From: Escherichia coli
Lineage (GTDB): Bacteria > Pseudomonadota > Gammaproteobacteria > Enterobacterales > Enterobacteriaceae
Reading direction: 5' to 3' (one strand)
DNA length: 64,000 nt
Assembly: GCF_024223415.1 (NCBI RefSeq)
Contig: NZ_CP100500.1
Positions 45,701 to 48,700 of this stretch are shown here, in pieces; position 1 is the first letter of the stretch; each line of letters starts with the position of its first letter. The position numbers were made by a program.

Positions 45701-48700
45701 ACAATAAGCGGCAGGCTGGCGGTATCGGCAATGAATCCGGCCGCCATCACAAACGCCAGCGTAGTGCCTTTACTGAACCCTAAAGCCAGCAGCATGGCGA
45801 TGACAATCGGTGTCAAAATAAGCGCCGCGCCATCATTGGCAAACAGGGCGGCAACGGCAGCACCGAGCAGGACAATCCAGGTAAACAGCAAGCGACCGCG
45901 TCCATTGCCCCAGCGTGAAACGTGCAGTGCCGCCCATTCAAAAAAGCCGGACTCATCCAGCAGCAGGCTGATGATAATAACGGCAATAAACGCAGCCGTC
46001 GCGTTCCAGACGATATTCCACACCACCGGAATATCACCCGGATGGACCACGCCCGTAACTAACGCCAGTACTGCGCCGAGCGTTGCACTCCAGCCGATGC
46101 CTAAACCTTTCGGCTGCCAGATAACCAATACAATGGTCAGGACAAAGATAGCGCCTGCCAGTAACATAATGCCTCCTGGATAAAACACATGCGAAAATAC
46201 ATATGTGTTTAGCTAAATTTTTTAACTGCAAATGTTCTTACTGTCTACGGAACAATTTTGTCGGGCCAGGTTGCGGACAATCACCTGAACCTTTTCCTGT
46301 TCACATCGCCAGGCCTCATCAATAATTTTCGCCGCCCATACTGGAATATGTGGCGATAGGCGGTAATGAACCCACTTACCTTGCTTGCGGTCCAGCAATA
46401 GCCCGCTTTCACGCAGTAATGCCAGATGGCGGGATATCTTGGGCTGCGACTGATCGAGGGCAGTGCAGAGATCGCAGACGCATAACTCTCCCAGTTCGCT
46501 AAGCAGTAAAACGATGCCCAGACGGGTTTCATCAGCAAGAATTTTGAAGAGTTGGATGGGTAACAGAAATGACATATTACGCTCCTGATTGCTGCAGGTA
46601 GTGTCTCTCTTCGAAGCGGATAAGTCAAAAACATATATGGTTTAACGAATGCGTGTGTGCAGAGGAAGGTAATAGGTGTGAATTTTGAGTTGGCTATTCA
46701 TTTGAAAGGAGGTCTGAATCAGGACGTAAAAAAACCGACTTTGCGTCGGTTTTTTACTTTCCAGCCCAGAGTTGGTGGCTCTGGCTGGAGTGAGAATGCC
46801 ATCATCTAACGCATCAATGCTAATACCATACTGAAACTATTGCAAGGACATGCTGGTTTTATAACCTGAATATACTGTATGATTATCCAGTTGGCTCTGA
46901 GGCATTTTCACTCTGGCAATGCGCATAAACGCTTTCAAAGTCCTGATCAGTGGTACGGGTGGTGCCGTTAACTGATGCTCTGGCCGGAGTGAGAATGCCA
47001 TTATCTAACAATAGGGCATGCGCCGTGACAGGCAATGGATGAGTAAGCGGATGCATTCTCACTCCATCGTATGGAGAACACGGGTGATTGATAAAGCAAT
47101 CATCGTTCTTGGGGCGTTAATTGCGCTGTTGGAACTGATCCGCTTTCTGCTTCAGCTTCTGAACTGATAGCGGAAACGTAATTAAGGGCTAAGAGCACAC
47201 TACTCTTAGCCCTTTAACATTTAACGCATGGTCACGAACTCTTCTGCCGCCGTTGGGTGAATGGCGACGGTATTGTCGAAGTCTTTTTTGGTTGCCCCCA
47301 TCTTCAGCGCCACCGCGAAGCCCTGCAACATTTCGTCCATACCAAAACCAATGCCGTGAATACCGACAATCTTCTCTTCTGGCCCAACGCACACCAGCTT
47401 CATGCGGCACGGCTGGCGGTGAGTGGTGACGGCGGTATACATCGCAGTGAAAGAGGATTTATACACTTTCACCTGATCGTCGCCGTACTGCTCGCGCGCC
47501 TGCGGTTCCGTTAAACCAACAGTACCAATCGGCGGATGGCTGAAGACCACGGTCGGAATGTTGCTGTAATCCAGATGCTCATCCGGCTTGTTATTAAACA
47601 GGCGCTCAGAGAGGCGGCGACCCGCTGCAACTGCCACCGGTGTCAGTTCTACTGCACCCGTGTTATCGCCCACCGCGTAAATACCTTCAATGTTGGTGTT
47701 TTGATATTTATCGACGACGATATAGCCTTTTTCGTTGGTTTTAACGCCAGCGGCTTCGAGGTTGATGTTGTCATTGGCAGGCTCGCGACCAATCGCCCAA
47801 ATCAGGCAATCCACCGTTTCACTGTGACCATCTTCCAGCTCCAGCGTCAGGCTACCATCGGCATTTTTCACTACCGCTTTCGGGATGGCGTTGGTGTGCA
47901 ACTGCGGGCCTTCGGCGTTCATCACTTCGACCAGCGTTTCAGAGATCATCGGGTCGAAGCTGCGCAGCGGCGCATGTTTACGCACAAACAGATGCGTTTT
48001 CGCGCCGAGGCCGTTAATCACGCCTGCCAGTTCCACGGCGATGTAACCCGCGCCAACAACCGCCACACGCTCTGGCAAAGCAGGAAGGGCAAAGAAACCA
48101 TCAGAATCAATACCGTATTCCACGCCCGGAATATCCGGGTGGCTCGGACGACCGCCGGTGGCGATCAGGATATGATCGGCCGTGATGGTTTCGCCGTTTA
48201 CTTCAATGGTTTTGGCATCAACGAAGCGGGCAAAGCCTTTGATTACATCAACGTTATTTTTACCGAGCACGTTTTCATAGGAAGTATGAATGCGGTCGAT
48301 ATAGGCGGTACGGCTGGCGATCAACGTTTCCCAGTTGAATTTATTGATAGTGGTATCAAAGCCGTAGTCCGGGCCGTACATGTGGATCGCTTCACGGATT
48401 TGCGCCGCGTGCCACATCACTTTTTTCGGCACGCAGCCGACGTTCACGCAGGTGCCGCCCAGTTCTTTGGCTTCAATCAGCGCGCATTTCTGGCCGTACA
48501 TAGCCGCGCGGTTGATGGAGGCGATACCGCCGCTGCCGCCGCCGATGGCGATGTAATCATAGTGTTTAGTCATGACAGAGTGTCCTTATCGTTGATTACC
48601 GCGATTGTAGCGCGAGACGTAATAGGTGCCAGCAATGGCTGCAATTACTCCGGCACGATCCAGCTTACGGTGGCGTGCCCGGTGCCAGCTGGAACCAGTT

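What the first reader, a model, noticed from the sequence alone, without database searches (positions are those of the whole stretch)
46600..47170. SOS-controlled type I toxin locus dinQ with repeated antisense sRNA genes (agrA/agrB)
A 27-codon GTG-initiated ORF encodes a single hydrophobic helix (MIDKAIIVLGALIALLELIRFLLQLLN) and lies downstream of a strong LexA box. Two roughly 90-nt direct repeats upstream carry sequence complementary to the dinQ leader (ggagtgagaatgc versus gcattctcactcc). This fits the dinQ-agrB toxin/antisense arrangement. It is a known system but easily missed by ORF callers.
Basis: partly seen in the sequence, partly recalled or inferred. Interest (0 to 1): 0.3.

Follow-up and report, generated by a model that had tools for sequence, protein, structure and literature searches.

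The report
dinQ toxin locus, single agr antitoxin

Summary
The window is E. coli, and 46576-47220 is the arsR-gor spacer that holds the known dinQ-agr type I toxin-antitoxin locus.

**Confirmed:**
- The GTG-initiated 27-codon dinQ ORF lies at 47084-47167. Its product is identical to WP_001295215.1 and matches the NCBIfam DinQ equivalog.
- The LexA operator lies at 46873-46892 and is identical to that of K-12.
- The complementary 13-mers are present.

**Not confirmed:**
- There are no "two ~90-nt repeats = agrA/agrB". Rfam AgrB matches once in the whole window, at 46726-46809 on the minus strand.
- The direct repeat is only 33 nt. Its second copy (46977-47009) is nucleotides +88 to +120 of the dinQ mRNA, which is the Agr target.
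- The GGAGUGAGAAUGC/GCAUUCUCACUCC pair is internal to the dinQ mRNA. These are elements 2 and 3 of the published translation switch, not the antisense contact.

**Comparison with K-12:**
- This haplotype lacks one 231-bp agr unit.
- The remaining Agr pairs with its own dinQ allele as well as K-12 AgrB pairs with K-12 dinQ: 31 of 32 positions, -58 kcal/mol.
- The K-12 and window dinQ targets differ at five positions, and the cognate agr copy carries matching changes.

**Verdict:** a known system, correctly named, with its anatomy mis-described. Interest is low. The allele/antitoxin co-variation across E. coli is a modest side finding.

The parts
46873..46892 (+). LexA operator (SOS box) TACTGTATGATTATCCAGTT, overlapping the dinQ -10 region and the transcription start
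   Evidence: It is the only perfect TACTGT-N9-CAGT match in the window. The 20-mer is identical to K-12. The published heterology index is 4.83.
46890..47219 (+). dinQ primary transcript (+1 to about +330). The +1 position is placed by homology with the mapped K-12 start. The 3' end is approximate and follows the hairpin at 47184-47214.
   Evidence: The published element coordinates map onto the window with the correct first and last bases when +1 = 46890. These elements are U16-C28, G88-A119, U167-U178, A182-G187 and the SD at G184-G187. The published transcript size is ~330 nt.
46905..46917 (+). dinQ mRNA sequence element 1 (U16-C28, UUUUCACUCUGGC). It pairs with element 2 in the translationally inert +1 transcript and is removed in the +44 form, whose 5' end lies near 46933/46934.
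   Evidence: It is identical to K-12. The 1:2 duplex is in the MFE of the +1 RNA. Duplex energy is -35.1 kcal/mol here against -27.7 in K-12.
46977..47009 (+). Copy 2 of the 33-nt direct repeat. It is the Agr target site in the dinQ 5' UTR (+88..+119) and contains element 2 (46983-46995).
   Evidence: Repeat D1. Pairing with Agr is 30 Watson-Crick + 1 G-U + 1 mismatch over 32 nt, -58.1 kcal/mol. There is no Rfam AgrB hit here at E<=1.
47053..47067 (+). dinQ mRNA element 3 region. GCAUUCUCACUCC at 47053-47065 pairs with element 2 in the +44 mRNA. UUCUCACUCCAU at 47056-47067 is the published element 3 and alternatively pairs with element 4.
   Evidence: Inverted repeat I2, 13 nt perfect. The 2:3 helix is in the MFE of the window's +44 RNA. 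Duplex energy is -25.2 kcal/mol against -21.3 in K-12.
47071..47076 (+). Element 4 (AUGGAG) containing the Shine-Dalgarno GGAG (47073-47076), 7 nt before the GTG start
   Evidence: It maps to A182-G187 of the published model. The sequence is identical to K-12.
47084..47167 (+). dinQ ORF: GTG start, 27 codons plus stop; a single-helix inner-membrane toxin peptide
   Evidence: K-12 experiments show that the 27-aa GTG product is the toxic peptide made from the +44 mRNA.
47184..47214 (.). Perfect 12-bp hairpin between the convergent dinQ and gor genes, a likely shared terminator
   Evidence: Inverted repeat I4. Terminator-like on the minus strand. The paper places the dinQ terminator just past the gor stop codon.
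46726..46809 (-). The single agr antisense sRNA gene (84 nt). RNA nucleotides 1-32 (46809 down to 46778) are antisense to dinQ +88..+119. An internal stem-loop is followed by a Rho-independent terminator at 46729-46755.
   Evidence: Rfam RF02891 AgrB, 107 bits against a gathering score of 40, full length, all pairs standard, and the only hit in the window. It folds at -31.1 kcal/mol, z = -4.7.
46817..46845 (-). Inferred agr promoter: TTGCAA (46845-46840), 17 nt spacer, TAGCAT (46822-46817), with the start 7-8 nt downstream
   Evidence: Read from the sequence. The same TTGCAA-17-TAG(C/T)AT layout precedes both K-12 agr genes ('prom' column). It matches 8 of 12 consensus positions, below the 9 of 12 that the scan tool requires, so one search does not list it. 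This is an inference, not a mapped promoter.

Best explanation
The arsR-gor spacer of this E. coli strain carries the dinQ-agr type I toxin-antitoxin module in a one-antitoxin form.

dinQ (+ strand):
- It is repressed by LexA at an operator that covers its -10 region and transcription start.
- After DNA damage a ~330-nt mRNA is made.
- This mRNA is translationally inert because element 1 pairs with element 2, which leaves element 3 free to lock the Shine-Dalgarno sequence (element 4) in a hairpin.
- Removal of the first 44 nt frees element 2 to pair with element 3.
- That pairing exposes the SD, and the 27-aa membrane-depolarising peptide is made.

agr (- strand):
- The gene is constitutive and divergently transcribed, and gives an 84-nt RNA.
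- Its first 32 nt are antisense to dinQ +88..+119, because a 33-nt DNA segment is present twice in direct orientation and is read from opposite strands.
- Agr binding occupies element 2, which returns the SD to the closed hairpin. It also creates a duplex that RNase III can cut.

Relation to K-12:
- This haplotype lacks one 231-bp agr unit.
- The simplest origin is unequal crossing-over between two agr copies.
- The surviving gene has the 5' antisense end and promoter of the dinQ-proximal ('agrA-position') unit.
- Here that end is the cognate match for this strain's dinQ target allele.

Basis:
- Shown here: the sequence anatomy, the copy number, the pairing, and the co-variation across genomes.
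- Taken from K-12 experiments: LexA control, +44 processing, the structural switch, RNase III cleavage and toxicity.
- Inferred: that the single Agr is a working antitoxin in this strain.
For: Identity and context:
- The locus is 100% identical to E. coli SCU-316, flanked by arsB and arsR on one side and gorA on the other.
- The dinQ peptide is identical to WP_001295215.1 and matches the DinQ equivalog.
- The LexA 20-mer is identical to K-12 and unique in the window.

Copy number:
- There is one full-length AgrB covariance-model hit, on the minus strand, in the window. K-12 has two.
- NC_000913 annotates agrA and agrB on the strand opposite to dinQ.
- Primer-extension mapping and the 31-nt 5' complementarity are published.
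- The alignment with K-12 shows a clean 231-bp gap of one unit.

Pairing:
- Window Agr with window dinQ: 30 WC + 1 GU + 1 mismatch over 32 nt, -58.1 kcal/mol.
- K-12 AgrB with K-12 dinQ: 31 of 32, -58.2 kcal/mol.
- K-12 AgrA, shown experimentally to be inactive, with K-12 dinQ: -42.7 kcal/mol.

Co-variation:
- The K-12 and window dinQ targets differ at +106, 107, 109, 110 and 111.
- The well-matched agr copy carries the corresponding changes.
- In 13 of 13 sampled two-copy genomes, the K-12-type target is matched by the arsR-proximal copy and the window-type target by the dinQ-proximal copy.

Switch elements:
- Elements 1, 3 and 4 and the SD are unchanged from K-12.
- The 1:2 helix in the +1 RNA and the 2:3 helix in the +44 RNA appear in the MFE folds of the window RNA.
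- The mechanism is published.
Against: - No expression data exist for this strain, so promoter activity, +44 processing and antitoxin function are extrapolated from K-12.
- MFE folding did not reproduce an open SD in the +44 form for either allele. P(unpaired) was ~0.15, so the in-silico test of the switch is inconclusive.
- The agr promoter matches only 8 of 12 consensus positions, and the scan tool did not call it.
- The deletion origin is not proven. An ancestral single-copy state would give the same flanks.
- The genome counts rest on megablast seeding and are approximate. Some diverged copies were missed.
Confidence: 0.87

Rival explanations
1. Two ~90-nt repeat copies upstream of dinQ are the agrA and agrB genes, and their GGAGUGAGAAUGC segment pairs with GCAUUCUCACUCC in the dinQ leader.
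For: The 13-14-nt perfect complements exist (I1 and I2). K-12 does have two agr genes.
Against: - The AgrB model hits only once in the window, on the minus strand.
- The repeat is 33 nt, with no detectable similarity outside it.
- The second copy lies at +88..+120 of the dinQ mRNA.
- agr is transcribed opposite to dinQ, so its RNA carries the same sequence as 47053-47065, not its complement.
- The spacer is 231 bp shorter than in K-12.
Confidence: 0.02
2. The single agr is an AgrA-like relic that does not control dinQ. In this strain the toxin would be restrained only by LexA and by the self-inhibitory fold of its mRNA.
For: - The gene keeps the promoter and 5' end of the dinQ-proximal unit, which is the agrA position.
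- K-12 AgrA does not bind dinQ or block its translation.
Against: - AgrA fails in K-12 because of mismatches to the K-12 target: 25 WC + 4 GU + 3 mismatches, -42.7 kcal/mol.
- Here the target allele differs, and pairing is 30 WC + 1 GU + 1 mismatch at -58.1 kcal/mol, equal to the functional K-12 AgrB pair.
- Every sampled single-copy locus has a target allele that matches its remaining agr.
Confidence: 0.08
3. The one-agr arrangement is the ancestral state, and the two-agr arrangement of K-12 is a later 231-bp tandem duplication. The window would then not be a deletion derivative.
For: The flanks of the single gene are the unique outer flanks of the two-copy array, as either history predicts. 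The K-12 authors themselves propose a tandem duplication.
Against: - Against an O157:H7 two-copy locus (L010), the window's agr carries four consecutive variants of the arsR-proximal copy in its 3' part. These are TTTGCG, T6, ACTTTCC and CCCAGAG.
- It then carries the variants of the dinQ-proximal copy in its 5' part and promoter. This is the signature of a crossover inside the shared 32-nt stretch.
- The promoter regions of the two K-12 units look much more diverged than the gene bodies (my reading of the alignments; identity not computed), so the duplication is old.
- Two-copy loci are about five times more frequent, ~3842 against ~768 genomes.
- Other recombination products between the same repeats exist (L004, L022, L025).
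Confidence: 0.2

Closest known systems
dinQ-agrAB locus of E. coli K-12 (Weel-Sneve et al. 2013, PMC3567139; Kristiansen et al. 2016, PMC5066626; Rfam RF02891; NCBIfam NF041472)
   Same: - Same chromosomal site, between arsR and gor.
- Identical 27-aa peptide and identical LexA operator.
- Same divergent sRNA with a 5' antisense segment against dinQ +88..+119.
- Elements 1, 3 and 4 and the SD of the mRNA switch are unchanged, and the terminators are the same.
   Different: - One agr gene instead of two, through loss of a 231-bp unit.
- The dinQ target differs at five positions and is matched by an agr with the dinQ-proximal-type 5' end rather than by the arsR-proximal AgrB.
- The altered bases lengthen both alternative helices. 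Helix 1:2 is -35.1 against -27.7 kcal/mol, and helix 2:3 is -25.2 against -21.3 kcal/mol.
tisB-istR-1 (SOS-induced type I toxin-antitoxin of E. coli)
   Same: Both have a LexA-controlled small membrane toxin and an inert primary mRNA activated by 5' processing. Both have a divergently transcribed, trans-encoded antisense RNA that acts in the 5' UTR and triggers RNase III cleavage. This comparison is drawn.
   Different: The peptide and RNA sequences are unrelated. IstR-1 is described as competing with standby ribosomes, whereas Agr acts by switching an mRNA helix. Not tested here.
dql (dinQ-like) genes of Enterobacteriaceae (Kristiansen et al. 2016)
   Same: The same four-element 5' UTR design and a similar small hydrophobic peptide.
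   Different: The window's gene is dinQ itself, with an identical peptide at the orthologous site, not a dql paralogue. No dql search was made here.

Membership tests
dinQ-agr type I toxin-antitoxin locus | Small hydrophobic single-helix toxin peptide of the DinQ family | tested here: met
   The 27-aa product matches NF041472 toxin_DinQ (equivalog) at 54 bits against a cut-off of 30. It is identical to WP_001295215.1.
dinQ-agr type I toxin-antitoxin locus | LexA operator in the dinQ promoter | tested here: met
   TACTGTATGATTATCCAGTT at 46873-46892. It is unique in the window and identical to the K-12 operator, whose published HI is 4.83. LexA binding itself is not testable here.
dinQ-agr type I toxin-antitoxin locus | Trans-encoded Agr sRNA gene (Rfam RF02891) transcribed divergently from dinQ | tested here: met
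   A full-length hit of 107 bits at 46726-46809 on the minus strand. The fold has z = -4.7.
dinQ-agr type I toxin-antitoxin locus | About 31-34 nt at the Agr 5' end complementary to the dinQ 5' UTR (+88..+119) | tested here: met
   30 WC + 1 GU + 1 mismatch over 32 nt, -58.1 kcal/mol. This equals the K-12 AgrB-dinQ pair.
   One hit in the window against two in K-12. There is a 231-bp gap in the alignment. This feature is not essential to the system. By subtraction of megablast counts, about 14% of complete E. coli genomes have one copy.
dinQ-agr type I toxin-antitoxin locus | Four-element mRNA switch (1:2 / 2:3 / 3:4) controlling SD access | tested here: inconclusive
   All four elements are present, and elements 1, 3 and 4 are identical to K-12. 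Helices 1:2 (+1 RNA) and 2:3 (+44 RNA) appear in the MFE folds, and their duplex energies were computed. However, the predicted SD accessibility did not differ between the +1 and +44 forms.
dinQ-agr type I toxin-antitoxin locus | SOS induction, +44 processing, peptide toxicity and antitoxin activity of Agr | not testable with these tools
   Known only from K-12 experiments.

The most novel reading that the evidence does not exclude
agrA is not simply a degenerate copy, as the K-12 work proposed.

- E. coli carries two alternative dinQ target alleles. The window type, GAGAAUGCCAUU, was found in about 2342 of 5426 complete genomes. The K-12 type, GAGAGAGUUCUU, was found in about 1684.
- It also carries two agr specificities.
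- In K-12-type strains the arsR-proximal AgrB is the cognate antitoxin.
- In window-type strains the dinQ-proximal 'AgrA' copy is the cognate one.
- The 33-nt repeats would then allow gene conversion that flips the target, and deletions that discard the non-cognate copy, as in this window.
- Other deletions between the same repeats remove the whole promoter region. About 15% of genomes keep an intact but promoterless dinQ ORF.
Probability: 0.6. Interest if true: 0.4.

Novelty: already known. Interest (0 to 1): 0.22.

Why it matters
The locus is textbook-level for specialists, so finding it adds nothing new. The value of the check is a corrected anatomy.

- Automatic annotation misses agr altogether. 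PGAP records list only dinQ.
- Anyone transferring the K-12 names would mislabel this strain's only antitoxin, or assume a second one exists.

The side observation is that the dinQ target and its matching agr copy co-vary, and that which paralogue is cognate differs between lineages. If confirmed experimentally, it would revise the view that AgrA is a dead copy. It would also give a natural compensatory-mutation test of the published RNA-switch model.

Tried and rejected
- **Homology beyond the 33-nt repeat.** I looked for extended (~90-200 nt) similarity between the agr unit and the dinQ 5' region. The 20-nt D2 match and the I3 match suggested a ~200-bp period. Local alignment of the sequences left of the repeat scored the same as shuffles, so I dropped it.
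- **Reproducing the SD switch by folding.** I folded the whole 330-nt and 286-nt RNAs, with and without the Agr site blocked. The helices appear, but the SD stays mostly paired in all cases for both alleles. This is inconclusive and I do not use it as support.
- **Copy-number census with the 84-nt agr as a megablast query.** It undercounts, because diverged copies lack a 28-nt exact seed. L015 and L016 were reported as single-copy but have two copies. I replaced it with counts of the inter-agr spacer and of the promoter region.
- **Substitution-only fuzzy matching.** It missed copies with a 1-nt indel in the terminator (L005, and the second copy of L010). Those are covered.
- **The 49-aa ATG ORF at 47018-47167.** I considered it as the product and rejected it, because K-12 experiments and the NCBIfam model both point to the 27-aa GTG product.
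- **Literature on the allele/antitoxin swap.** I searched the held literature and found none. T1TAdb only notes that AgrA is present 'in some strains'.
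Full report
**What is in the sequence.**

The window is Escherichia coli. The 1.6 kb around the finding is 100% identical to strain SCU-316 and 95-96% identical to K-12 and O157:H7. The genes are:
- arsB, 44878-46188, minus strand;
- arsR, 46222-46575, minus strand;
- a 645-bp spacer, 46576-47220;
- gor, 47221-48573, minus strand.

In the spacer, the GTG-initiated ORF at 47084-47167 encodes MIDKAIIVLGALIALLELIRFLLQLLN. PGAP annotates the same coordinates as dinQ (WP_001295215.1) in the identical strain. The peptide matches the NCBIfam equivalog toxin_DinQ at 54 bits against a cut-off of 30.

The sequence TACTGTATGATTATCCAGTT at 46873-46892 is the only perfect match to TACTGT-N9-CAGT in the 64 kb window. 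It is identical to the K-12 dinQ operator, for which a heterology index of 4.83 is published. These parts of the observation stand.

**The repeats.**

The repeat finder reports a 33-nt direct repeat, with copies at 46778-46810 and 46977-47009 and 31 of 33 bases identical. It also reports perfect 13-14-nt inverted repeats between GGAGTGAGAATGC (both copies) and GCATTCTCACTCC at 47053-47065. By my own estimate (about 800²/2 position pairs divided by 4¹³), roughly 0.005 perfect 13-nt complements would be expected by chance in 800 nt, so these are not chance matches.

The repeat is not ~90 nt long. Local alignment of the sequences left of the two copies scores 16, the same as the shuffle mean. The right flanks align only over a 9-nt stretch (score 13, not tested against shuffles).

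The Rfam AgrB model (RF02891) matches once, full length, at 107 bits, at 46726-46809 on the minus strand. Nothing else in 46000-47800 reaches E<=1 apart from the palindromic terminator. A scan of the whole window finds no second copy. The same model finds two genes in K-12 and one in SCU-316.

**Comparison with K-12.**

NC_000913 annotates agrA (3648063-3648144) and agrB (3648294-3648375) on the strand opposite to dinQ. The original paper mapped both 5' ends. It states that 31 nt at the 5' end are antisense to dinQ, with 25 of 31 matching for AgrA and 30 of 31 for AgrB.

The alignment of the two spacers (645 against 876 bp) shows one clean 231-bp gap, which is one agr unit. The window's gene has the left flank of the arsR-proximal unit (the agrB position). 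It has the 5' end and promoter of the dinQ-proximal unit (the agrA position).

**What the second 'repeat' and the quoted complement are.**

Kristiansen et al. number dinQ from its mapped +1. They define these elements:
- sequence 1: U16-C28;
- sequence 2: G94-G106;
- sequence 3: U167-U178;
- sequence 4: A182-G187, which includes the SD at G184-G187;
- the AgrB site: G88-A119.

With +1 at window 46890, every element falls on the right bases:
- 46905-46917, UUUUCACUCUGGC;
- 46983-46995;
- 47056-47067, UUCUCACUCCAU;
- 47071-47076, AUGGAG;
- target 46977-47008.

The second repeat copy is therefore the Agr target inside the dinQ 5' UTR. Agr is antisense to it because the first copy is transcribed from the other strand. 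The GGAGUGAGAAUGC/GCAUUCUCACUCC complement is the intramolecular 2:3 duplex of the dinQ mRNA. The Agr RNA carries the same sequence as 47053-47065, not its complement.

**Is the single Agr a plausible antitoxin?**

Pairing results:

| Pair | Pairing over 32 nt | Energy (kcal/mol) |
|---|---|---|
| Window Agr with window dinQ | 30 WC + 1 GU + 1 mismatch | -58.1 |
| K-12 AgrB with K-12 dinQ | 31 of 32 | -58.2 |
| K-12 AgrA with K-12 dinQ | 25 WC + 4 GU + 3 mismatches | -42.7 |
| Cross-combinations of window and K-12 partners | not summarised | -41 to -50 |

K-12 AgrA neither closes the SD nor blocks translation in vitro.

The two dinQ mRNAs differ at 17 of 330 positions. Five of these are clustered at +106 to +111 inside the target, and the window's agr carries the matching bases. 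The Agr RNA itself folds as the family consensus, with z = -4.7. Upstream it has TTGCAA-17-TAGCAT, the same layout as both K-12 agr promoters. That promoter is my reading and was not called by the scan.

**Mechanism.**

The mechanism is taken from K-12 experiments:
- LexA represses dinQ.
- The +1 mRNA is inert, because the 1:2 helix leaves elements 3 and 4 free to close the SD.
- Loss of the first 44 nt allows the 2:3 helix and opens the SD.
- The 27-aa peptide inserts in the inner membrane, depolarises it and lowers ATP.
- AgrB binding to +88..+119 re-closes the SD and gives an RNase III substrate.

In the window's RNA the MFE contains 1:2 in the +1 form and 2:3 in the +44 form. The window allele lengthens both helices: 1:2 is -35.1 against -27.7 kcal/mol, and 2:3 is -25.2 against -21.3 kcal/mol. 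Predicted SD accessibility did not change between the forms in either allele. Folding therefore neither supports nor contradicts the last step.

**Population context (approximate, megablast-based), among 5426 complete genomes.**

| Feature | Genomes |
|---|---|
| dinQ-gor region present | 5422 |
| Divergent promoter region (46811-46976) present | 4610 |
| Inter-agr spacer present (two copies) | 3842 |
| Window-type target allele | 2342 |
| K-12-type target allele | 1684 |

By subtraction, about 770 genomes (14%) have a single agr like the window. About 810 (15%) have lost the promoter region.

I fetched 21 further loci besides the window and its identical strain.
- In 13 of 13 two-copy loci the well-matched copy depends on the target allele. 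With the K-12-type target, the arsR-proximal copy pairs at 31 of 32 (-58 kcal/mol). With the window-type target, the dinQ-proximal copy pairs at 30-31 of 32 (-54 to -58 kcal/mol). The other copy pairs at 26-29 of 32 (-41 to -46 kcal/mol).
- All eight single-copy loci with intact promoters, counting the window itself, keep the dinQ-proximal-type 5' end together with a matching target.
- L015 and L016 have near-identical flanks but opposite target alleles, which looks like gene conversion.
- L004, L022 and L025 are deletions between the 33-nt repeats. They remove the LexA box and promoters but leave the dinQ ORF intact and annotated.

**Origin of the one-copy form.**

Against the O157:H7 two-copy locus L010, the window's agr shows four consecutive arsR-proximal-copy variants in its 3' part. 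It then shows dinQ-proximal-copy variants in its 5' part and promoter. This is the pattern of unequal crossing-over within the shared 32-nt stretch. An ancestral single copy is not excluded.

**Literature.**

The two primary papers treat E. coli and Shigella dinQ as essentially identical and regard AgrA as a degenerated, non-functional duplicate. T1TAdb notes only that AgrA occurs in some strains, and it picks the more stable pairing. Searches of the held library found no description of the allele/antitoxin swap.

**Verdict.**

The anatomy was mis-described in three respects: the number of agr genes, their strand, and what pairs with what. The novelty class is 'already known' and interest is low. 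The co-variation of target and antitoxin across E. coli is a modest, testable by-product.

Noticed in passing
window 46995-47000 (dinQ +106..+111) and 46788-46793 (agr); loci L001, L009, L010, L013-L018, L020, L021, L023, L024: E. coli has two dinQ target alleles. The window type was found in about 2342 genomes and the K-12 type in about 1684. In two-copy strains the cognate agr copy switches with the allele, between the arsR-proximal copy (K-12 type) and the dinQ-proximal copy (window type). This held in 13 of 13 sampled loci. I found no description of it in the papers read.
   Followed up: partly
L004:1437-1772, L022, L025 (E. coli EcPF40, CFIAFB20190157, PEC389): These are deletion haplotypes produced by recombination between the 33-nt repeats. 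They lack the LexA box, the dinQ promoter and the agr promoter, yet keep an intact dinQ ORF that PGAP still annotates. By subtraction, about 15% of complete genomes lack the promoter region.
   Followed up: partly
L015 vs L016 (strains E597 and 19KM1831): These two loci have near-identical flanking sequence but opposite dinQ target alleles (K-12 type against window type). This suggests gene conversion of the dinQ repeat by one or the other agr copy.
   Followed up: no
window 46901-46917 / 46983-46999 and 46986-46998 / 47053-47065: The window-type allele lengthens both alternative helices of the dinQ mRNA switch. Helix 1:2 is -35.1 against -27.7 kcal/mol, and helix 2:3 is -25.2 against -21.3 kcal/mol, compared with K-12. 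The effect on the switch is unknown.
   Followed up: partly
window 46726-46809; L001, L002: PGAP/RefSeq records annotate dinQ but no agr gene, even in a K-12 MG1655 record. Only NC_000913 lists agrA and agrB.
   Followed up: yes
window 46883-47062 minus strand; L016:406-579, L018:816-989: Some RefSeq genomes annotate a 57-aa 'hypothetical protein' antisense to the dinQ 5' UTR. The window has a similar 59-aa minus-strand ORF. It is probably a spurious call over the dinQ leader.
   Followed up: no
window 20850-20963 (-), 26742-26813 (-), 36486-36517 (+): Other Rfam matches above the gathering score are GadY sRNA, ES205 sRNA and the shuA/chuA 5' UTR thermoregulator. The chuA element means the strain carries the haem-uptake locus.
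   Followed up: no
window 29703, 31654, 37099, 44853, 55566, 62494, 63833: The loose pattern TACTGT-N9-CAGT with one mismatch gives 8 matches against 2.1 expected, and no shuffle reached 8. Only the dinQ site is perfect. The others were not examined.
   Followed up: no
L006:2055-3623 (E. coli strain 100416): In this strain dinQ is followed by two hypothetical genes instead of gor. The megablast match of the window query ends about 70 bp past the dinQ ORF, and the query matched at three places in that record. This is an insertion or rearrangement next to the locus.
   Followed up: no
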